A DNA stretch of 64,000 nt, from IMG/VR virus record IMGVR_UViG_3300011008_000999, one strand, 5' to 3'. A program made the translations under genes and the position numbers. The stretch is from a virus (taxonomy: Duplodnaviria; Caudoviricetes). This document shows, piece after piece, positions 32,305-62,136 of this stretch; position 1 is the first letter of the stretch; the number at the start of each line of letters is the position of its first letter. The notes beneath the pieces were generated by a model that did not search any database, was not told the DNA's origin, and worked only from the letters and a program-made list of their open reading frames with translations.

Positions 32305-33396
32305 TTAGGCTACTGAAAGCCCTTTGTTTAAGATGTTTAGGCTTGCATTAGTGTCTCTATCGTGCTTTGTATGGCATTTAGGACACTCCCATTCTCTAAC
32401 AGAGAGGTTCTTTACAAGTGGATTTTTATATCCACAACAGCTACATGTTTGACTACTAGGATACATGGTCGGAACTTTAATTATTTCATTTCCATACCAA
32501 GTGGCTTTGTATTCAAGCATTGTAAAGAATTTAGACCATGAGCAGCTTGCTATGTGTTGCGCAAGCTTATGGTTGCGCACCATCCCCTTAATATTTAAGT
32601 CCTCTATACAGATAGTTTGGTTTTCGCTAACAAGTATAGTTGACTGTTTTTGAAGGAAATCGTTGCGCTGATTAGTTATCTTCTCATGGACTTTAGCTAC
32701 TTTAACACGCTGTTTATTGCGATTATTAGAACTTTTCTGCTTACGAGAAAGCCTGCGTTGTTCTCTGATAAGTTTACGCATAGATTTCTCTAAATACTTA
32801 GGGTTGTTGACAATATTGCCGTTGCTGTCGGAGTAAAATTCTTTAATACCGACATCAATGCCAATCACGCCGCCTGCATTTGGTCGATATTCGGGTTCAA
32901 AATCAACATTCAGCACTACAAAGTATTTACCTGTGGGAGTGTGTTCTATCGTAGCATTATTGATACGTCCCACTTTCATAGACTGTTTGACTTTGACATA
33001 TCCAAGCTTCGGGAGCTTAATATAATTCCCGACTATGCGAATGTTATCACCTTGGTTAATGGTCCTGTAGGACTGATGATTATTATGCTTACTCTTGAAC
33101 TGCGGATGTCTTGCACGTTTCTCAAAGAAATTTTTAAATCCACGGTCTAAATCTCTCAAAGATTGTTGAAGTGCAATAGAATCAACAACTTTCAAAAAAG
33201 CAAAATCATCAGACCTTTTTAATTCCGTAAGCATAGCAGATGTTTGATTGTATCCTATTTTTTGACCATTAACGTAGGCATTATTACGCATAGCAAGACC
33301 TTTGTTGTAGATGAGTCTGCAACAACCAAGTGTTTGATTTATTAAGTTTTGCTGCTCTTTATTAGGATATATCCTAAACTTAACACCTTTATTCAT
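32305..33396 (-). CDS. tnpB: RNA-guided endonuclease TnpB
   Basis: RuvC D (GIDVG), E (IEDL), D (DRDTNA); CxxC..CxxC. Confidence 0.95.
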   Translation of the reverse strand: MNKGVKFRIYPNKEQQNLINQTLGCCRLIYNKGLAMRNNAYVNGQKIGYNQTSAMLTELKRSDDFAFLKVVDSIALQQSLRDLDRGFKNFFEKRARHPQFKSKHNNHQSYRTINQGDNIRIVGNYIKLPKLGYVKVKQSMKVGRINNATIEHTPTGKYFVVLNVDFEPEYRPNAGGVIGIDVGIKEFYSDSNGNIVNNPKYLEKSMRKLIREQRRLSRKQKSSNNRNKQRVKVAKVHEKITNQRNDFLQKQSTILVSENQTICIEDLNIKGMVRNHKLAQHIASCSWSKFFTMLEYKATWYGNEIIKVPTMYPSSQTCSCCGYKNPLVKNLSVREWECPKCHTKHDRDTNASLNILNKGLSVA

Positions 33397-47417: not shown

Positions 47418-47489
47418 AGTCGACGGTGGGAGTCGAACCCACGATACTGGTTTTGCAGACCAAGGCCTTAACCACTTGGCTACGTCGAC
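47418..47489 (-). tRNA. tRNA-Cys(GCA)
   Basis: Cloverleaf. Confidence 0.9.
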
Positions 47490-50890: not shown

Positions 50891-51065
50891 ATATAAGAGA
50901 GTGTACTAATCCTCAGCTTCGAGTATGGCTAACCCTTAGGGAGTCGAACCCACCGATAAGATACAGAATAGTAATCAGCACATCTGTTTTAACTAGGTGA
51001 TTAAGCTAGCGACTTATCTGGACTTTAGATCATCTTGCAAAACAATCTGTCGTCTACACTCTAAA

Positions 51066-51189
51066 GAAGGATGGTAGGACTCGAACCTACAGTGTACCGG
51101 CTCCCTAAGCATTAGAATTTTGGTTGCTGTCTTTATCACGAAAATGATAGTGTCAAAACGGCGCGTCTGCCAATTCCGCCACATCCTTC
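51066..51189 (-). ncRNA. Leu-type tRNA scaffold with handle insert in anticodon arm
   Basis: TATCAT-TTTC-GTGATA-AAGACAGCAA inside the arm. Confidence 0.75.
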
Positions 51190-51191
51190 AA

Positions 51192-51315
51192 CGACTGAGG
51201 AAGGAATCGAACCTTCACCTTTTCCGTGACAGGGAAATTTATTTAAGTTTGTTTGCTGTCTAAATCACGGTGATGATTCTGAAATATAAATATGCTTCCA
51301 TTACACCACTCGGCC
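51192..51315 (-). ncRNA. tRNA-Asp(GTC) with about 50-nt handle insert between D arm and anticodon stem
   Basis: AATCAT-CACC-GTGATT-TAGACAGCAA, then intact TTTCC-CTGTCAC-GGAAA. Confidence 0.75.
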
Positions 51316-52234: not shown

Positions 52235-52309
52235 AACCAGTATAAGGAATCGAACCTTTAATTTCTAGGCCTATCGCCCAGCACACTTACCAAAGTACTT
52301 TTACTGGTT
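52235..52309 (-). ncRNA. tRNA-like RNA with atypical anticodon loop (CGATAGG)
   Basis: AACCAGT/ACTGGTT, T-arm; no U33. Confidence 0.5.
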
Positions 52310-55983: not shown

Positions 55984-56058
55984 TGATTCCAGCGGGACTC
56001 GAACCCAGCATTTCAGGCTTGAAAGGCCTGTGAACTCATCCAGTTATTCGATGGAACC
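55984..56058 (-). tRNA. tRNA-Glu(TTC)
   Basis: Cloverleaf. Confidence 0.85.
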
Positions 56059-56063
56059 ATAAA

Positions 56064-56137
56064 TGCACGTAGAGAGGATCGAACTCCCGGCCTACTGCTT
56101 GTAAGGCAGCCTCTCATCCCAGCTGAGCTATACGTGC
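56064..56137 (-). tRNA. tRNA-Val(TAC)
   Basis: Cloverleaf. Confidence 0.9.
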
Positions 56138-56254
56138 ATATTTGCCTACCTCCAAAATTTTAACTCTCGGCACTGTGATAACAGTGTGAATACAATGTAT
56201 TCATAGGCATGTTTTATATACCTCGCGCGTAATATATAAAACAGAGTTATTACG

Positions 56255-56330
56255 TGGACCTTATGGGAATTGAACCCATCTGCTTTCCTGCTTGCAAGGC
56301 AGGCGACCACTCCATGCAGTCCCAAAGCCC
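56255..56330 (-). tRNA. tRNA-Ala(TGC)
   Basis: Cloverleaf, atypical D arm. Confidence 0.8.
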
Positions 56331-56410
56331 ATAATTCTCTAATCAGTGATATACGATGTTTGTATCTCGCTTACGCTCACATTAGTCCATATATGTAATT
56401 AGAGTTAAAA

Positions 56411-56481
56411 TATGTTGGAAGGACTCGAACCTTCAACCTCCGGCTCCGACGCCGGTACTCTGCCAACTGAGCTACAACACC
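56411..56481 (-). ncRNA. tRNA-like RNA with 6-nt anticodon loop (GTCGGA)
   Basis: Otherwise canonical arms. Confidence 0.65.
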
Positions 56482-56582
56482 TTCTACCTACTTATTCAAT
56501 TTTTAGATTGTACTTCTCTACATATCCTGTTCGGTAGGACGCTCAATTAAGAATTGTACTTTTTCTCATTGAAACGAATTAA

Positions 56583-56670
56583 CGACCTAAAGAGGAATCG
56601 AACCTCTACCAGCTTTAAGACTTAATGCCGTTCTACGCGCTTAAAATATCTTCCATTAAACTATTAGGCC
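56583..56670 (-). ncRNA. tRNA-like RNA with 20-nt anticodon loop
   Basis: GGCCTAA/TTAGGTC; TTTAAG[20 nt]CTTAAA. Confidence 0.65.
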
Positions 56671-56672
56671 AG

Positions 56673-56744
56673 CGACCCTAGTGGGACTCGAACCCACGCT
56701 ACCTGATAGACAGTCAGGCGTGTTAACCGCTACACTATAGAGCC
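56673..56744 (-). tRNA. tRNA-Asp(GTC)
   Basis: Cloverleaf. Confidence 0.9.
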
Positions 56745-56758
56745 ATATTTAATTTTAA

Positions 56759-56840
56759 TGGGAAAGGAGGGATTCGAACCCCCCGAACCTAACGGAACTG
56801 ATTTACAGTCAGCCGGCTTTAACCACTTGCATACTCGCCC
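56759..56840 (-). tRNA. tRNA-Tyr(GTA)
   Basis: Cloverleaf. Confidence 0.85.
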
Positions 56841-56844
56841 ATAA

Positions 56845-56925
56845 TGCGCCGCTCTGGACTCGAACCAGAAATGCCTAAGCCACGATTTTACAGACCGCTG
56901 CGATACCAATTCCGCTCACCGACGC
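56845..56925 (-). tRNA. tRNA-Tyr(GTA)
   Basis: Cloverleaf. Confidence 0.8.
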
Positions 56926-57012
56926 ATATTTCGATAGTAATAATAATACTCGCCTTCCATAATTTTTTATCTCCTTATAGTTAATTTCATTTAATACAGA
57001 TTTCTCTGTTAG

Positions 57013-57085
57013 TGCCTCGTGTTGGTGTCGAACCAACCTCTCTTGTTCTTCAGACAAGCGCTATCACCGGTTCAGCTGACGGGGC
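57013..57085 (-). tRNA. tRNA-Phe(GAA)
   Basis: Cloverleaf. Confidence 0.8.
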
Positions 57086-57186
57086 TTGGTAAAGTCAGAT
57101 TCTTTACCAGTACTAAATCGCTTCATAGTATTTTTCTCCTTTTTATTTGATTACATCAAACTACTTACTAATTGTAAATAGTTTAG

Positions 57187-57258
57187 CTGGCAAGGTGGGG
57201 TTCGAACCCACGACCTTTCGGTTAACAGTCGACTGCTCTACCGCTGAGCTACATGCTA
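57187..57258 (-). tRNA. tRNA-Asn(GTT)
   Basis: Cloverleaf. Confidence 0.85.
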
Positions 57259-57266
57259 ATAATTAT

Positions 57267-57350
57267 AGGACGCATTGTTTACGGATTTGAACCGTGTGAT
57301 TTGAGTTGCAGTCAAATATTTTACCAAAATTAGTTTGCTGTGAACGTCCC
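57267..57350 (-). ncRNA. D/anticodon(GCA)/T arms mounted on an ACAGCAA handle instead of an acceptor stem
   Basis: GGGACGT-TCACAGCAA...TTTGA-CTGCAAC-TCAAA...ACGG-TTCAAAT-CCGT...GCGTCCT. Confidence 0.7.
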
Positions 57351-57353
57351 AAG

Positions 57354-57438
57354 CGCCGTAGATAGGATTCGAACCTACATACCTTTTTGAGGCTGGCGGT
57401 TTTCAAGACCGCTGCTCCACCAACTGAGCGACTACGGC
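57354..57438 (-). tRNA. tRNA-Ser(TGA)
   Basis: Cloverleaf, long variable arm. Confidence 0.85.
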
Positions 57439-57592
57439 ATATTATACACATTACCTATTCTCAAATGTGGATATCAATAGGCTTGTCATCTATCAGAGGG
57501 AGTCGAACCATACTGTTGCATCAGTATTTCTCACTATCCACATCTTGATCCTCATCTTAGATGTACACAATAATGCAAGTTTAATGTGTAAG

Positions 57593-57676
57593 CGGTGCAC
57601 ACGAGATTCGAACTCGCAAGCCACTAATGCGACCAACTGCTTAGCAGGCAGCTCCCTAACCATTCGGATATGCACC
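57593..57676 (-). tRNA. tRNA-Ser(GCT)
   Basis: Cloverleaf, long variable arm. Confidence 0.85.
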
Positions 57677-57780
57677 ATATTTTATTGACGTTATACCAGA
57701 TTGACTCTGGATAAACTCTAAATCTTAAGCTATATATTTATATTAATTAAAATTAAGGTTCACAGAATGTCATTATGTAA

Positions 57781-57852
57781 TGCTCCTGGCGAGATTCGAA
57801 CTCACAATATTCGGTTCGTAGCCGAGTAGTTTATCCATTAGCTTACAAGAGC
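57781..57852 (-). tRNA. tRNA-Arg(ACG)
   Basis: Cloverleaf. Confidence 0.85.
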
Positions 57853-57859
57853 ATTTTAG

Positions 57860-57931
57860 CTGGCCGTGAAGGACTTGAACCTTCAATCTCCTGAGTCAGA
57901 GTCAGGCGCCTTACCGTTTGGCTAACGGCCA
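57860..57931 (-). tRNA. tRNA-Gln(CTG)
   Basis: Cloverleaf. Confidence 0.9.
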
Positions 57932-57940
57932 ATATTTTAA

Positions 57941-58040
57941 CAGGTATGGAAGGATTCGAACCTATATCGCATGAGTTTGGTTTCTCATGTATTCTAACCA
58001 AAGTATGAAGCGCTTAGACATACATTAAACTAAATTCCTA
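57941..58040 (-). ncRNA. tRNA-like RNA with hairpin inserted in D loop and 8-nt AAACCAAA loop
   Basis: GTATG..CATAC insert; CATGAG/CTCATG stem; T-loop. Confidence 0.55.
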
Positions 58041-58041
58041 G

Positions 58042-58115
58042 TGCACACTCGGAGACTCGAACTCCGGACCGCTCGGTTATCAGCCGAGTACTCTAACCAA
58101 CTGAGCTAAGTGTGC
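58042..58115 (-). tRNA. tRNA-Ile(GAT)
   Basis: Cloverleaf. Confidence 0.9.
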
Positions 58116-58230
58116 ATGCTTGCTAGAATAATTATTACTCTAGCAAGTGGTTGTACAAATAACTGTTCAACCATCACTTAAGAAAGGTGGTATGCGAGAC
58201 ATAATATTTTAAGACATTATATCTTGCAAG

Positions 58231-58303
58231 AGCTGATATAGAGACTTGAACTCTAAACCTACGGATTACTAAACCATTGCTCTGCCAATTGAGCTATACC
58301 AGC
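58231..58303 (-). tRNA. tRNA-Thr(AGT)
   Basis: ATGGT-TTAGTAA-TCCGT; GCTGGTA acceptor like the other Thr tRNA. Confidence 0.85.
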
Positions 58304-58377
58304 AAGTAGGATAAAAAATAAGCAGTTATCCAAGTAGATTTGGGTAACTGCTTTGAATGATATTTCACATTTTCATT

Positions 58378-58647
58378 CTACGTGCAGTTCTCCCGTGTCT
58401 TCAAAATATTATAAATACGATCTCTATCATTTGTAGATACTTCAATTGACTCAGAAATGTCAAATCCATTATCTGCAAAAATACTCATGGTTCCTTCAGT
58501 ATTAACATCAACACTAATCCAATAACTAACTGTGACATTAGACACTTCATTAGTTTTAAGCTGCTTAGCAAGATCCTTGATGCGTACAGCAAGGCTAACG
58601 TTAATATCTTCGAGTTCTTTAAGTGTTATACTCTGTATATTTGTCAT
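58378..58647 (-). CDS. Hypothetical protein
   Basis: AAAGGAG RBS. Confidence 0.6.
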   Translation of the reverse strand: MTNIQSITLKELEDINVSLAVRIKDLAKQLKTNEVSNVTVSYWISVDVNTEGTMSIFADNGFDISESIEVSTNDRDRIYNILKTRENCT

Positions 58648-58728
58648 GTTAGTTATCTCCTTTCATTAGTATTGATAAGTGCGGATAACGAGACTCGAAC
58701 TCGTATGAGGTTGCCCCCGAGGGATTTT

Positions 58729-59420
58729 CTTACCACTATAACTTTCATTACCGTCTCAAACAAAACGTTTGTGGTCTGGACTAGTTCTTCACCATATCAT
58801 TTCTGACTTAGGTGCGACGTGTATAGTCTCTACACATTTAGGTTACTAAACCATTTAGCTCGCCATTCCCATACAGCTTTAACTATCTGTAAGGCTTTGT
58901 GATTTAGCGCCGTTCTCATCTAGGAGTTTCCTACCTAGTGACTCATTTGTCTTTCCTCTTCTAAAACGATAAGTTTTAGTTAAAGCATGGCAATTTGGAC
59001 AAATTAACCTTAGATTTTCTAATCTATGATCAGTTGGATTGCCATTTATGTGATCTAATTCACAAGGTGTATATGTTGCACCTTCTGGTTTTTTATTCCA
59101 ACCACATAATTGACATTTGTCCTCAAAATATCCTTCATTTATAAGTCTAATTTTTAACTTATATGTTTGATAATGAGGATATTTACCAGCTAGTATATCA
59201 GAGGTTTCAATGTGTCTAGAAGATAACTTTTTAGTACCTTTTCCACCTTGATTTTTAATTTTGTGGAATATACCTAACGCCTTTGCTTTCGCAATATACG
59301 TTCGATATGACATACCGCATAATTTACTAGCTTGAGCCACGGTTTGACAGTTTTCAGTGATTTTTATGAACTCTTCATCAGTAATACCAGATTTGTTCAT
59401 ATTATCACCTACTTTCTTTT
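58729..59420 (-). ncRNA. Group I intron in anticodon (U^AA)
   Basis: Splice after U, terminal G; P1 GACUU|A...UGAGUC with U-G pair; P7 elements GTAGAGACTA and GAAGAACTAGTCC. Confidence 0.9.
58879..59400 (-). CDS. Intron-encoded HNH homing endonuclease
   Basis: CQLC...ELDHING..DHRLENLRLICPNCHA. Confidence 0.9.
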   Translation of the reverse strand: MNKSGITDEEFIKITENCQTVAQASKLCGMSYRTYIAKAKALGIFHKIKNQGGKGTKKLSSRHIETSDILAGKYPHYQTYKLKIRLINEGYFEDKCQLCGWNKKPEGATYTPCELDHINGNPTDHRLENLRLICPNCHALTKTYRFRRGKTNESLGRKLLDENGAKSQSLTDS

Positions 59421-59492: not shown

Positions 59493-59586
59493 TTAAGCAG
59501 CTACAGTAACTGCTGCATAACGATCACTACAGATCACATCAAGCATTGCTTCGAGAGGTGTCTTATTCATTCCCTGAACTAAGTTC
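59493..59586 (-). pseudogene. C-terminal remnant of a DUF2828/vWA (Ro60/TROVE-like) gene
   Basis: NLVQGMNKTPLEAMLDVICSDRYAAVTVAA* followed by hairpin; family recognised from memory of the TP..ML....S.RY ending. Confidence 0.55.
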
Positions 59587-59733
59587 GTGAACTACTCGGC
59601 AACAAGTTACCGAGCTTCTTGCTTCAACCACTACTGCTAGGCTACACGTAACCGTGTTGGCTAGTCTTACACAGTGTCCACAAGCGTATAAGTTCGGGCA
59701 GTTCCTGCCCTACTATAAGAATAAGAGATGGAT

Positions 59734-60858
59734 TTAGGCTACTTGTAGTAATCTGAGTCCTTCATTTTTTATGTTGATAGCTGCATTGTAGTCTCTATCT
59801 ATAGTTAGACCACAATCACATTTATATATTCTATCAGCAAGGGTAAGCTTTCTTTGGCTTCCGCAACAGCTACATAGCTGTGAGGAAGGATACCATTTAT
59901 CTACTTTGATAAAGTATTTTCCTCTATCAAAAAGCTTGTACTCTAGCATATTTAGAAATAATCCATAGTCGTTATCTAAAGTAGCCTTTCCATTTCCAAA
60001 GCCCTTATTAGACATAGCTCTCATATCAAGGCTTTCTACACATACAACGTCATACTGATTGGCTATCTCAGTAGAGAGTTTATGTAAATTATCTAGTCTT
60101 TGGTTAGTGATGTGTCTATGGATTTTATTTACTTTCTTTAATTGTTTTAGATAGTTATTGGATTTCTTTTCATTCTTTTTAGAACCTATTTTACGAGAAA
60201 GTTTACGTTGTTCTTTAGCGAGCTTTTTATGACTTTCTCGATAGTATTTATGATTGGAACCTATATTTCCATTACTATCCATATACAAACCATCAGATTT
60301 ATAATCTAAGCCGATTGCATTATCTGATTTAGTAACTTTAGTAATAACTCTGTCAAATTCAAAGAGAATAGAAATATAAAAACTACCATCACTTTCTTGA
60401 GATACAGTAGCAGACTTGATTATCCAGTCAGCCTCTGGCTGTCTATGGATAACTGCCTTCACCTTACCTATCTTAGGTAACTTGATGTACTTATCATCTA
60501 TGATTGCCACCGTACCTTTTTGATTATTAGTAGTATAGGACTTTCTAGTATGCTTTCTTGACTTGAATTTAGGAAAGCCATTACGTTTTTTACGTTTCTT
60601 GTCAAAGAAAGCCTTATAGGAAGACTGTAAGTTGATTTGTACATTGGCGAGAGCCAAAGAATCAACTTCCTTCAAGAATGTATAGTCTTTCTTGTACTGT
60701 GCAGGCGTAGTCTGAAAACTCTCGCCTGTAGCTTTGTAATAAGCAATCTTATCTACGAGCATAAGATTCCACACCTTACGGCAACAGCCGAAGGTCTGTG
60801 CAAACTTATCAGCTTGTTCAGTTGTAGGATATACTCGATACTTGATTGCTTTATTCAT
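59734..60858 (-). CDS. tnpB: RNA-guided endonuclease TnpB
   Basis: GLDY, VESL, DRDYNAA; Zn finger. Confidence 0.95.
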   Translation of the reverse strand: MNKAIKYRVYPTTEQADKFAQTFGCCRKVWNLMLVDKIAYYKATGESFQTTPAQYKKDYTFLKEVDSLALANVQINLQSSYKAFFDKKRKKRNGFPKFKSRKHTRKSYTTNNQKGTVAIIDDKYIKLPKIGKVKAVIHRQPEADWIIKSATVSQESDGSFYISILFEFDRVITKVTKSDNAIGLDYKSDGLYMDSNGNIGSNHKYYRESHKKLAKEQRKLSRKIGSKKNEKKSNNYLKQLKKVNKIHRHITNQRLDNLHKLSTEIANQYDVVCVESLDMRAMSNKGFGNGKATLDNDYGLFLNMLEYKLFDRGKYFIKVDKWYPSSQLCSCCGSQRKLTLADRIYKCDCGLTIDRDYNAAINIKNEGLRLLQVA

Positions 60859-61268
60859 AGCTGTACATTCTTTTGCCTTTCTATATATTTTAGGATGTTT
60901 TCCTCAGAGGTGGAGCCTATGGTTTCACAGAAGTAAGAGCCATTCCAAAGTTGACCTTTCCAAAGCATAGTTCTAATCTCAGGAAACTCTTTGAGTAATG
61001 TATTCCCACTAATGCCTTTGAGATACTTTACTATTTGAGTAACTGAAATCTTTGGTGGAGCAGATACAAAACAATGAACGTGGTCGCTTTCACCAACTTT
61101 GCAATCTACCACAGTAAAGCCTTTCTCAATACCTATCTCTTTTACTAACTCATAGAGTCTTTCAGCTATCTCAGGTTTGAGAACTTTCCTTCTGTATTTG
61201 ACACACCATACGATGTGATAATTGATATTGTAGACGCAGGTGCGTCCGTGAGTGTACTTGTTATTCAT
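60855..61268 (-). CDS. tnpA: Y1 HUH transposase
   Basis: YHIVWCVKYRR, DHVH, LKG.S, YIERQ. Confidence 0.95.
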   Translation of the reverse strand: MNNKYTHGRTCVYNINYHIVWCVKYRRKVLKPEIAERLYELVKEIGIEKGFTVVDCKVGESDHVHCFVSAPPKISVTQIVKYLKGISGNTLLKEFPEIRTMLWKGQLWNGSYFCETIGSTSEENILKYIERQKNVQL

Positions 61269-61416
61269 ACATATAGTATATATCTAATGTGTATCAATGT
61301 TAATATTTATGCTATTAGCTAATCATACATATAGTATAATAATTTAGGTTGAGAAAAACGGGCTTTCATCTCGGATACAAGTAACCGAGAATTCCCGCCC
61401 GAATTCTTAAAGGTGT

Positions 61417-62136
61417 TTGCTGTTTGAGTCACATGTATTTTGAGTCGTCCACTAAAGTAGGACCTCTCTAATTAAATGATTGACAAGATCTGTTAATAGG
61501 ATTTTTCGACGATCTTTATACTCGATTTCCTCGTACGTTGTGGACGTACAAACCAGACTTTACAGTCATCATCGTTAACATTTGATAATGTTTGCTGTAG
61601 TCAATCACAAAATGCAATTGTAAAGGTACGATACCTAAATGACGAGTTTAACAAGATAATTTTTTCGCATAAATTTTCTGTTGTTAATGTTTTGCAGTAA
61701 TCGTCACAAATAGGTGAGTTACTAAATGACTGACAAGGAACGTTTAATGGGATTTTTTGGTCGTTACCTATGCTACACCGTTTCCCGACATGTTAGGTAC
61801 ATGCCAACCTAATTTTTATTTACCTAAAATAAAATTAAGAAGATTTGCAATTGTATTGCTGTTAAGTCAGTCACGACTTGTAAAAAATATGATTGTCACG
61901 GACTCTTTCTCGGATTTTCTGGTGGCATACCGCTCTTTACCGTTTCCGGATAGATCATTTGAATCGGATCTTTTGGCTGATACTATCATGTTCCATTTCC
62001 GGATAGGTCGTTAGTCAGATTTTTAGTGACCTATCAGTATACATTTTCTGGATTGTTAAACAATCAGCTTTGGCACCTTTATCGTGCACATACTGTTATC
62101 ATCTTTAATAGAATGATTTGCTGTTAAGACAATCAC
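61417..62136 (-). repeat. Array of five handle-RNA units (one truncated)
   Basis: 61889..62136, 61726..61874, 61639..61707, 61476..61608, 61417..61432; covarying terminal helices plus AC(A/T)GCAA. Confidence 0.8.

What the first reader, a model, noticed from the sequence alone, without database searches (positions are those of the whole stretch)
57267..57350. Third topology: tRNA D, anticodon and T arms mounted on an ACAGCAA handle in place of the acceptor stem
Seen: GGGACGT-TCACAGCAA-ACT, then a D-like arm, a perfect Cys anticodon arm (TTTGA-CTGCAAC-TCAAA), a T arm and closure by GCGTCCT. The helix sequence differs from GTGA/TCAT but the ACAGCAA next to the helix is kept. Inference: a non-chargeable anticodon-presenting decoy, which suggests ACAGCAA is the recognised determinant.
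Basis: partly seen in the sequence, partly recalled or inferred. Interest (0 to 1): 0.75.

Follow-up and report, generated by a model that had tools for sequence, protein, structure and literature searches.

The report
Acceptor-less tRNA mimic on Ro60-type handle
This 84-base stretch of a giant gut-phage tRNA gene cluster is not a decaying cysteine tRNA. It is a conserved small RNA that shows a tRNA-like body on a short "handle", and in related phages and gut bacteria that handle lies beside a Ro60-like ring protein and RNA-repair enzymes, although this phage has lost the protein gene to a jumping element.

Summary
On the minus strand, 57350-57267 reads as a 7-bp helix, UC, ACAGCAA, a GG-containing D region, an anticodon arm with a tRNA-Cys loop (CUGCAAC), a T arm, AAACAAU, then the closing strand. 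No acceptor stem adjoins the T stem.

It is not a pseudogene. I found eight other distinct homologues (ten aligned rows, one of them a sibling handle unit). All keep ACAGCAA. The outer helix (100% paired) and the anticodon stem (96%) covary, and the T arm is invariant.

In five homologous loci the RNA sits directly 5' of a DUF2828+vWA gene. A model of that protein matches only Ro60/TROVE rings over its full length. In 80 bacterial loci the helix-plus-ACAGCAA handle tracks this gene on its strand (216 units against 4), inside WYL-DUF2828-RtcB-RlaP operons.

Best reading: an uncatalogued Y-RNA-like partner RNA displaying a tRNA-Cys-type body, linked to tRNA damage and repair. In this phage an IS200/IS605 element has replaced the protein gene, and no RNA ligase or RlaP is present. 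The RNA is therefore an orphan that either uses a host protein or is a recent relic.

The decoy idea is untested. The "third topology" has the same connectivity as the neighbouring closed units. This scan has reported the handle family many times on other DNA.

The parts
57267..57350 (-). Whole element: an 84-nt small-RNA gene made of the handle plus an acceptor-less tRNA-like body. It lies 3 nt after tRNA-Ser(UGA) and 8 nt before tRNA-Asn(GUU).
   Evidence: Model R1 scores 107.9 bits. The independent handle model R2 returns it as the top hit of the window with these exact ends.
57344..57350 (-). 5' strand of the handle helix, GGGACGU. It fits the family pattern NNGRYRC.
   Evidence: It pairs with 57267-57273. 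In alignment A6 the helix is 100% paired and 5 of 7 pairs change on both sides. The family helix consensus is AAGRYRC.
57335..57341 (-). ACAGCAA motif, 2 nt (UC) after the helix strand.
   Evidence: It is invariant in 10 of 10 aligned rows. In 80 DUF2828-anchored loci it occurs 279 times on the gene strand and 55 times on the other strand.
57318..57332 (-). UA plus the D-like arm AUUU-UGGUA-AAAU, an all-A-U stem with a short loop holding GG.
   Evidence: Rfam tRNA alignment. The stem is kept only in the window, G001 and L036. The GG loop is kept in all subfamily members.
57300..57316 (-). Anticodon-type stem-loop UUUGA-CUGCAAC-UCAAA, with GCA at 57307-57309.
   Evidence: The stem is 96% paired and 5 of 5 pairs change on both sides. 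The loop is CUGCAAA/C or CUACAAA in 7 of 9 subfamily members. The phage's true tRNA-Cys has the loop CUGCAAA.
57281..57295 (-). T arm ACGG-UUCAAAU-CCGU.
   Evidence: The stem is invariant in all 9 subfamily members.
57274..57280 (-). A-rich 3' linker AAACAAU, lying opposite the ACAGCAA side of the junction.
   Evidence: It is identical in G001 and L036, and ...CAAU is kept in all members. In the bacterial units the commonest endings of the 3' linker are A-rich.
57267..57273 (-). 3' strand of the handle helix, GCGUCCU.
59517..59591 (-). C-terminal remnant (25 codons) of the DUF2828 Ro60-like gene. No other copy exists in the 331,944-bp genome.
   Evidence: tblastn gives 76% identity to residues 456-480 of the G001 protein. 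There is no PF11443 or PF05731 match in the genome. Synteny break.
59734..61268 (-). IS200/IS605 element: tnpB at 59734-60858 and tnpA at 60855-61268. It occupies the place of the DUF2828 gene and cuts the last handle unit, which begins with GUGACUC at 61433 (ACAGCAA at 61417-61423).
   Evidence: Pfam and synteny with G001.
61476..62136 (-). Sibling handle units closed by their own ends: 61889-62136, 61726-61874, 61639-61707 (variant ACTGCAA) and 61476-61608.
51064..51315 (-). Two tRNA genes that carry the handle as an internal hairpin (UCAU-loop-GUGA-NNN-ACAGCAA).

Best explanation
The element is a gene for a small RNA of about 84-95 nt. It belongs to an uncatalogued family defined by a 7-bp helix that joins the RNA's two ends, followed after 2 nt by ACAGCAA.

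**Release from the transcript (inferred).** It is freed from the long tRNA-array transcript when the flanking tRNA-Ser and tRNA-Asn are processed.

**What the handle does (inferred from association and fold).** The handle docks on a Ro60-like ring protein (DUF2828 + vWA), much as the terminal stem of a Y RNA docks on Ro60.

**What the cargo is.** The cargo is a tRNA body without an acceptor stem: a GG D loop, an anticodon stem-loop copying the tRNA-Cys loop, and an invariant T arm that can still form the tRNA elbow. It is held out to engage factors that recognise tRNA.

**Likely purpose (inferred).** The protein gene travels with RtcB or Rnl RNA ligases, the RlaP nucleotidyltransferase and WYL regulators. 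The particle most likely takes part in sensing, absorbing or repairing damage to tRNA anticodon loops during phage-host conflict.

**State in this phage.** An IS200/IS605 element has replaced the protein gene, and no ligase or RlaP is encoded. The RNA is therefore an orphan. It either works with a DUF2828-RtcB system of the Clostridia-type host or is a recent, still intact relic.

**Shown:** sequence, structure conservation, family membership, gene association, protein fold class and gene loss.
**Inferred:** expression, processing, protein binding and function.
For: **The element and its homologues.**
- A syntenic homologue in the 394-kb phage G001 keeps UC-ACAGCAA, the GCA loop and AAACAAU. 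Pair 6 of its helix changes G-C to A-U.
- Seven more homologues from IMG/VR and metagenomes score 33-58 bits with model R1.
- Over ten rows (nine subfamily members plus one sibling handle unit) the outer helix is 100% paired with 5 of 7 pairs changed on both sides. The anticodon stem is 96% paired with 5 of 5 changed. The T stem is invariant. No shuffle out of 500 reaches these values, and slid controls reach only 33-46% paired.
- RNAalifold recovers three of the four helices on its own.

**Link to the protein gene.**
- In L030, L031, L033, L034 and L035 the homologue is the unit directly 5' of a DUF2828 gene, on the same strand.
- G001 encodes DUF2828+DUF7788 about 3.3 kb from its copy.
- In 80 DUF2828 loci from species-representative genomes, 216 of 279 ACAGCAA on the gene strand have the 7-bp helix in register. 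On the other strand the figure is 4 of 55, and in reversed sequence 5 of 50. Units occur on the gene strand in 73 of 80 loci; of the 145 units in full-length loci, 142 lie upstream of the gene.
- All 20 R1 hits in those loci are on the gene strand and upstream. Several are a handle plus an acceptor-less tRNA body.
- Model R2, built only from 44 bacterial units, finds this element with its exact ends as the best hit of the window.

**The protein and its neighbours.**
- The DUF2828 model (pLDDT 79.8, pTM 0.70) has Ro60/TROVE rings as all its matches at E <= 0.001, over the full length: 9l5y, 9kop, 2nvo, 1yvr, 9nen, with E from 2e-6 to 4e-4.
- The neighbouring genes are WYL, WYL/WCX, RtcB and RlaP.
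- The three phages with DUF2828 (G001, G004, G006) each also have RlaP and a ligase. The two without it (G000, G005) have neither.

**Precedents.** Published parallels are the rsr-yrlBA-rtcBA operon (PMC7790460), tRNA-like Y RNAs (PMC4201824) and a phage Ro60 that binds phage-encoded Y-like RNAs (PMC12135203).
Against: - There is no expression, processing or binding evidence for any member.
- This phage has no DUF2828, TROVE, RtcB, RlaP or RNA-ligase gene, so the proposed partner is absent here.
- Sibling units show possible erosion: one is cut by the IS, one reads ACTGCAA, and one G001 unit has no counterpart.
- Identity between G000 and G001 is no higher in the element (0.82) than in the spacers (0.83-0.88), so that pair alone shows no selection.
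- The independent handle model gives only E 0.023.
- The handle lacks the GNCGAA motif of known Y RNAs, and the protein is not a Pfam TROVE member.
- The homologue alignment was fitted to the model structure, which favours pairing counts.
Confidence: 0.65

Rival explanations
1. A member of the family by descent, but dead in this phage. After the IS destroyed the DUF2828 gene, the RNA lost its function and merely has not yet decayed.
For: - The protein gene is reduced to 25 codons, and there is no ligase or RlaP.
- A sibling unit is truncated, another carries ACTGCAA, and one G001 unit is missing.
- Conservation between G000 and G001 does not exceed that of the spacers.
- G005, which also lacks DUF2828, shows no convincing handles in its 20-kb array locus.
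Against: - The element itself is fully intact: helix, motif, all arms and both linkers.
- Most sibling units are intact too.
- DUF2828-RtcB operons are common in gut Clostridia, the likely host group, so a host protein could serve.
Confidence: 0.25
2. A free-standing decoy. The RNA soaks up a host anticodon nuclease aimed at tRNA-Cys and so protects the real tRNA-Cys. ACAGCAA would be read by the nuclease or by a protective factor, with no need for a Ro60-like protein.
For: - A tRNA-Cys-type loop is conserved in 7 of 9 subfamily members across covarying stems.
- Other handle units carry bare Lys(UUU)-type or Asn(GUU)-type anticodon hairpins.
- The element persists without the protein gene.
Against: - The handle tracks the DUF2828 gene, not any nuclease.
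- Many handle cargos have no anticodon-like loop (139 of 216).
- No nuclease is identified and no cleavage data exist.
- A decoy role and a Ro60-like carrier do not exclude each other.
Confidence: 0.12
3. A cis-acting leader or operator-like RNA site, through which the DUF2828 protein controls its own operon, rather than a trans-acting partner RNA.
For: - 142 of 145 units in the full-length bacterial loci lie just upstream of the gene on its strand.
- In five phage loci this subfamily directly precedes the start codon.
Against: - In G000, G001, L032 and L036 the element lies inside tRNA arrays between tRNA genes, kilobases from any DUF2828 gene or with none present.
- Loci hold up to 8 units with varied cargos.
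- A tRNA-like body is not needed for a leader.
Confidence: 0.07
4. A decaying tRNA-Cys pseudogene, or an odd but chargeable tRNA-Cys whose outer helix serves as the acceptor stem with two junction bulges.
For: - The body scores 28.6 bits with the tRNA model.
- The outer helix is 7 bp long.
- In G001 the base after the helix is U, the tRNA-Cys discriminator.
Against: - The inserts (11 nt on the 5' side, 7 nt on the 3' side) are conserved, not random.
- ACAGCAA is invariant and the stems covary.
- The same handle closes units with no tRNA parts at all.
- Real tRNA-Cys genes coexist with it (window 47418-47489; L032).
- In the window the base after the helix is A.
- ARAGORN makes no call.
Confidence: 0.03

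Closest known systems
Bacterial and phage Y RNAs with Ro60/Rsr: YrlA, and Yrn1 of Deinococcus (Rfam RF02553; Chen et al. 2014, PMC4201824)
   Same: - A small RNA whose 5' and 3' ends form the protein-binding stem.
- The second module mimics tRNA (T arm and D-loop features). In Yrn1 the terminal stem takes the place of the acceptor stem and an anticodon-like arm is present, as it is here.
- It is encoded next to a ring protein with a vWA domain.
- It is genetically linked to RtcB (rsr-yrlBA-rtcBA, PMC7790460).
   Different: - The handle motif is ACAGCAA after a 7-bp NNGRYRC helix, not the GNCGAAN0-1G bulged stem.
- RF02553 scores 14.7 bits against a gathering score of 69.
- The protein is DUF2828/DUF7788, with no Pfam TROVE match. 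It resembles Ro60 by fold only, at 12-17% identity.
- Units occur in arrays of up to 8 with exchangeable cargos.
Thermus phage phiLo Ro60 with phage-encoded Yrl1 and Yrl2 (PMC12135203; PDB 9KOP, 9L5Y)
   Same: - A phage-encoded Ro60-type ring, with its own small RNAs encoded just upstream of the gene.
- It is one of the two best structural matches of the DUF2828 model (9kop and 9l5y, both E 2.1e-6).
   Different: - Those RNAs were found through the CGAA motif and are not tRNA bodies on an ACAGCAA handle.
- The proposed role there is recruitment of host PNPase, not ligase-linked repair.
Class I RNAs of dictyostelid amoebae (Rfam RF01414; Kjellin et al. 2021, PMC7919456)
   Same: - A short covarying stem joins the 5' and 3' ends.
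- An 11-nt motif ending in ACAGCAA lies next to the 5' stem half with the same spacing.
[quoted passage not shown]
- RF01414 weakly hits a sibling unit (21.6 bits).
   Different: - They are eukaryotic, 42-65 nt long, with a DUSE promoter.
- No tRNA-like cargo has been described.
- RF01414 does not hit this element at E <= 10, and the sibling hit is below the gathering score of 41.5.
- No protein of the Ro60 type is linked to them in that paper.
Canonical tRNA-Cys (Rfam RF00005)
   Same: - Anticodon loop CUGCAA(A/C).
- T loop UUCAAAU.
- GG in the D loop.
- It sits in a tRNA array, on the same strand, with tRNA-like spacing.
   Different: - No acceptor stem adjoins the T stem.
- Conserved 11-nt and 7-nt junction inserts are present.
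- The match is local only (model positions 8-63, 28.6 bits against 29).
- ARAGORN does not call it.
- Apart from the loop it is unrelated in sequence to the phage's real tRNA-Cys.

Membership tests
Helix + ACAGCAA handle RNAs found beside DUF2828 genes (uncatalogued; defined here from 80 bacterial and 7 viral loci) | [quoted passage not shown] | tested here: met
   100% paired over 10 rows, with 5 of 7 pairs changed on both sides.
Helix + ACAGCAA handle RNAs found beside DUF2828 genes (uncatalogued; defined here from 80 bacterial and 7 viral loci) | ACAGCAA begins 9-10 nt after the first base of the helix (7 bp plus 2-3 nt). | tested here: met
   GGGACGU-UC-ACAGCAA, which matches the geometry of the family's 216 units.
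Helix + ACAGCAA handle RNAs found beside DUF2828 genes (uncatalogued; defined here from 80 bacterial and 7 viral loci) | Helix positions 3-7 follow the pattern G-R-Y-R-C. | tested here: met
   The window has G-A-C-G-U, with position 7 as a U.G pair. G001 has G-A-C-A-C.
Helix + ACAGCAA handle RNAs found beside DUF2828 genes (uncatalogued; defined here from 80 bacterial and 7 viral loci) | It is recognised by a covariance model built without it or its phage relatives. | tested here: met
   R2 (44 bacterial units) gives it as the top hit of the window with exact ends, at 18 bits and E 0.023. This is a modest score.
Helix + ACAGCAA handle RNAs found beside DUF2828 genes (uncatalogued; defined here from 80 bacterial and 7 viral loci) | It lies on the same strand as, and near, a DUF2828 gene. 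| tested here: not met
   This genome holds only a 25-codon remnant at 59517-59591, about 2.2 kb away on the same strand. The feature is met in the homologues: G001 at about 3.3 kb, and five loci directly adjacent.
tRNA (RF00005) | A full cloverleaf, with a 7-bp acceptor stem contiguous with the T stem, scoring above the gathering threshold. | tested here: not met
   Local match to positions 8-63 only, at 28.6 bits against 29. It is absent from the gathering-threshold list and from ARAGORN.
tRNA (RF00005) | It can be aminoacylated. | not testable with these tools
   This needs a CysRS charging assay.
YrlA / Y RNA (RF02553) | A match to the family model and the GNCGAAN0-1G motif in the Ro60-binding stem. 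| tested here: not met
   14.7 bits against a gathering score of 69, and the alignment runs into the neighbouring tRNA. The element contains no CGAA.
YrlA / Y RNA (RF02553) | It is encoded beside a TROVE-domain (PF05731) Ro60 gene. | tested here: not met
   There is no PF05731 match in the genome. The associated protein family in relatives is DUF2828, which is Ro60-like by fold only.
YrlA / Y RNA (RF02553) | It has a tRNA-like module with a T arm and D-loop features. | tested here: met
Dictyostelium Class I RNA (RF01414) | A match to the family model above the gathering score of 41.5 bits. | tested here: not met
   There is no hit on this element at E <= 10. A sibling unit scores 21.6 bits.

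The most novel reading that the evidence does not exclude
Handle RNAs are bait or sentinel copies of tRNA anticodon arms, held on a Ro60-like ring next to an RNA ligase. This one would be the tRNA-Cys bait.

An anticodon nuclease cuts the displayed loop. The particle then either absorbs the attack, or the cut RNA signals damage to the WYL regulators and is resealed by RtcB or Rnl.

A phage that has lost its own protein, like this one, would keep the baits because they load onto the host's DUF2828-RtcB system. The phage would thereby borrow or jam a host tRNA-repair pathway.
Probability: 0.12. Interest if true: 0.85.

Novelty: new variant of a known kind. Interest (0 to 1): 0.6.

Why it matters
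**For annotation.** It turns an apparent junk tRNA into a member of a large, uncatalogued RNA family. The family has no Rfam model, and I found no paper on DUF2828 function or on this motif outside Dictyostelium.

**For Ro60 biology.** The family looks like the missing RNA partner of a widespread Ro60-like protein in gut bacteria, jumbo phages and their RNA-repair operons. This extends the Ro60/Y-RNA principle to a second protein family with a different RNA code.

**For mechanism.** The RNAs present specific anticodon loops, so they offer a direct handle on how cells and phages sense or counter tRNA cleavage.

**For this phage.** This copy is a natural experiment: the RNAs are retained after loss of the protein. 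That makes dependence on a host protein testable.

**For Dictyostelium.** The shared motif also gives a candidate lead on the unexplained Class I RNAs.

Tried and rejected
- Megablast of 56000-59000 against INPHARED phages gave no match.
- An exact-pattern scan of IMG/VR for ACAGCAA plus this anticodon arm and T loop gave 0 hits.
- A second pattern gave G001 plus three chance hits in what looks like coding DNA.
- The genome search with model R1 on G006-G009 returned nothing. Yet cmsearch on the fetched G006 locus gives a 48-bit hit. I treat that empty answer as a miss by the tool's first-look filter.
- A sequence-only PDB search with a two-sequence DUF2828 profile found nothing meaningful. The fold search was needed.
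- Single-genome descriptor scans for helix+ACAGCAA are not specific in this AT-rich genome: under loose geometry 10 of 35 sense and 6 of 15 antisense motifs have some 7-bp helix. I rejected them as evidence.
- Per-feature identity between G000 and G001 does not separate the element from the spacers. It is not usable as a test of selection.
- Minimum-free-energy stability of the single sequence is unremarkable (z -1.48).
- Burroughs and Aravind 2016 (NAR 44:8525) is not held in the library. From memory, it treats Rot/TROVE modules with Y RNAs, and RlaP, in RNA-repair systems. I could not check whether it covers DUF2828.
- Recent duplication of the phage's tRNA-Cys is rejected. Only the loop is shared.
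- A DNA-level terminal inverted repeat (MITE-like element) is rejected. G.U pairs work only on the sense RNA strand, and the units are strongly strand-specific.

Full report
**Setting.** The window is part of a complete 331,944-bp virus record with direct terminal repeats. It is AT-rich. On the minus strand it holds 40 tRNA genes and a tmRNA gene (41 ARAGORN calls). The finding lies between tRNA-Ser(UGA) at 57353-57438 and tRNA-Asn(GUU) at 57186-57258, leaving 3-nt and 8-nt spacers.

**Observation.** Read on the minus strand, the RNA is GGGACGU-UC-ACAGCAA-AC-UA-[AUUU UGGUA AAAU]-A-[UUUGA CUGCAAC UCAAA]-UCAC-[ACGG UUCAAAU CCGU]-AAACAAU-GCGUCCU.
- Rfam's tRNA model aligns only positions 8-63, at 28.6 bits against a gathering score of 29.
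- ARAGORN makes no call.
- The seven bases on either side of the tRNA body, where an acceptor stem should be, cannot pair.
- A 7-bp helix farther out closes the molecule, and the minimum-free-energy fold shows exactly this.
- Neither the fold energy (z -1.48) nor a simple helix+ACAGCAA descriptor is significant in one AT-rich genome. The case therefore rests on comparison.

**Homologues.**
- A 394-kb phage (G001), found through a shared HD-domain protein, has the element at the same place between the same two tRNAs.
- UC-ACAGCAA, the GCA loop and AAACAAU are kept there. Helix pair 6 changes G-C to A-U and pair 7 changes U.G to C-G.
- A covariance model of the two sequences (R1) and one metagenome pattern scan gave seven further homologues at 33-58 bits.
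- On the ten-row alignment (nine subfamily members and one sibling handle unit), ACAGCAA is invariant.
- The outer helix is 100% paired with five of seven pairs changed on both sides. The anticodon-type stem is 96% paired with all five pairs changed. The T stem is invariant.
- No shuffle out of 500 reaches the observed values. Sliding the partners drops pairing to 33-46%.
- RNAalifold recovers the outer helix, the anticodon stem and the T stem on its own, but not the D stem. The D stem is present only in three members; the others keep the GG loop.
- The 7-nt loop is CUGCAAA or CUGCAAC in five members and CUACAAA in two. The phage's real tRNA-Cys (47418-47489) has CUGCAAA but shares nothing else with the element.
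The element is under structural selection as a family.

**The handle family and its protein.**
- Other units in the window share the design. The helix here, GGGAC/GUCCU, is the siblings' GUGAC/GUCAU with one compensated pair.
- In five homologous loci the Cys-type element is the unit directly 5' of a DUF2828+DUF7788 (vWA-like) gene on the same strand. G001 encodes this protein about 3.3 kb from its copy.
- As an independent test I fetched 80 DUF2828 loci from species-representative genomes. They are mostly gut and rumen Clostridia.
- ACAGCAA occurs there 279 times on the gene strand and 55 times on the other strand.
- 216 against 4 of these have a 7-bp helix in register. A reversed-sequence control gives 5 of 50.
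- 73 of 80 loci have a unit on the gene strand. Of the 145 units in full-length loci, 142 lie upstream of the gene.
- The helix follows AAGRYRC with purine-purine and pyrimidine-pyrimidine exchanges.
- All 20 R1 hits in these loci are upstream on the gene strand. Several are a handle plus an acceptor-less tRNA body with other anticodon loops, for example CUGAAAA. The "third topology" is therefore a recurrent cargo type, not a new connectivity.
- A model built only from 44 bacterial units (R2) returns this element, with its exact ends, as the best hit in the 64-kb window (18 bits, E 0.023).

**What the protein is.** A nine-sequence alignment gave a model with pLDDT 79.8 and pTM 0.70. All its Foldseek matches at E <= 0.001 are full-length Ro60/TROVE rings: Thermus phage phiLo Ro60, Deinococcus Rsr, and frog and human Ro60, with E from 2e-6 to 4e-4 and TM 0.39-0.57. 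After them come only vWA domains. A sequence search of the PDB had found nothing, and Pfam TROVE does not match.

**Gene neighbourhood.**
- In bacteria the order is WYL, WYL/WCX, handle RNAs, DUF2828, RtcB, RlaP. One Treponema MAG has an Rnl-type ligase instead.
- Among the five related phages, the three with DUF2828 each also have RlaP and a ligase. The two without it have neither.
- This mirrors the rsr-yrlBA-rtcBA operon (PMC7790460) and tRNA-like Y RNAs (PMC4201824). It also fits the remark that some jumbo phages carry a ROT/TROVE protein acting with a tRNA-like partner in RNA repair (PMC7824862).

**This phage has lost the partner.**
- The genome has no PF11443 or PF05731 match.
- Synteny with G001 breaks exactly where G001 has the gene. 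The window has an IS200/IS605 element there: tnpA at 60855-61268 and tnpB at 59734-60858.
- Only 25 codons of the C-terminus remain, at 59517-59591.
- The last handle unit is cut by the IS. One sibling unit reads ACTGCAA. A Lys-type unit and an RNA-ligase gene of G001 have no counterpart here.

**Mechanism.** I commit to the following reading.
- The RNA is released by processing of the flanking tRNAs.
- The handle is the docking site for the Ro60-like ring.
- The tRNA-Cys-like body is displayed to tRNA-recognising factors in a ligase-linked response to tRNA damage.
- Here the RNA is an orphan, either served by a host DUF2828 protein or a recent relic.
- Family membership, gene association, protein fold class and gene loss are shown. 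Expression, binding and function are inferred.
- A pure decoy role is possible but untested. A leader role fits poorly with copies inside tRNA arrays. The pseudogene and chargeable-tRNA readings are very unlikely.

**Novelty.**
- No Rfam family other than the partial tRNA match hits the element.
- Full-text searches found no paper on DUF2828 function or on this motif with tRNAs.
- The nearest published things are YrlA/Yrn1, phiLo Yrl RNAs and Dictyostelium Class I RNAs, which share the stem-plus-ACAGCAA signature (weak RF01414 hit on a sibling unit).
- Earlier notes of this scan describe the same handle family in many other genomes. I used them as leads and re-tested the main claims here.
- New for this locus are the conserved Cys-type subfamily, its position directly before the DUF2828 gene, and the loss of the protein, ligase and RlaP in this phage.

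Noticed in passing
window 59517-61415: An IS200/IS605 element (tnpA at 60855-61268, tnpB at 59734-60858) has replaced the DUF2828 Ro60-like gene, leaving a 25-codon C-terminal remnant at 59517-59591. It also truncates the last handle unit, which begins with GUGACUC at 61433 (ACAGCAA at 61417-61423).
   Followed up: yes
G001:C1:119065-119520 (L006/L019), against window 57677-57779: The sister phage G001 has a 226-aa RNA ligase ORF (PF09414) between tRNA-Ser(GCU) and tRNA-Arg(ACG), about 400 nt from its copy of the element. The window has only about 100 nt there and no ligase, RtcB or RlaP anywhere in the genome.
   Followed up: partly
L039-L118 (80 GTDB loci), e.g. L092, L096, L046, L051: A conserved operon in gut and rumen Clostridia: WYL regulator, WYL/WCX regulator, 1-8 handle RNAs, DUF2828, RtcB, RlaP. 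A Treponema MAG (L049) has an Rnl-type ligase instead of RtcB.
   Followed up: partly
window 57439-57591 (-): The 153-nt spacer between the two tRNA-Ser genes is 88% identical to G001. It folds with a 9-bp terminal helix (z -1.95) and contains a T-loop-like GGUUCGACUCC. It has no ACAGCAA and matches no Rfam family, so it may be another tRNA-derived small RNA.
   Followed up: partly
window 57012-57676 against G001: The tRNA-Ser(GCU), tRNA-Ser(UGA) and tRNA-Phe genes are only 69-72% identical between the two phages. The spacers between them are 83-88% identical. tRNA genes therefore seem to be exchanged, or to evolve, faster than their surroundings.
   Followed up: no
window 61639-61707 (-): This handle unit reads ACTGCAA where the G001 orthologue reads ACAGCAA. 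The change falls in a motif that is otherwise near-invariant and may be a sign of erosion after loss of the protein.
   Followed up: partly
L019:8417-8479 (-), L022:5592-5658, L034:2071-2137, L036:472-532, L031:1953-2015 (-): Minimal handle units of 61-67 nt carry only an anticodon-type hairpin. The loop is CUUUUAA (Lys UUU type) in four phage lineages and CUGUUAA (Asn GUU type) in one.
   Followed up: partly
A second TnpB (OrfB_IS605 + Cas12f1-like TNB) gene lies at 32305-33396.
   Followed up: no
window 56409-56482, 56582-56671, 52235-52308 (-): ARAGORN reports two tRNA-like genes with two-base 'anticodons' (tRNA-???) and a tRNA-Tyr with anticodon AUA. These are further aberrant tRNA-like genes in the array.
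   Followed up: no
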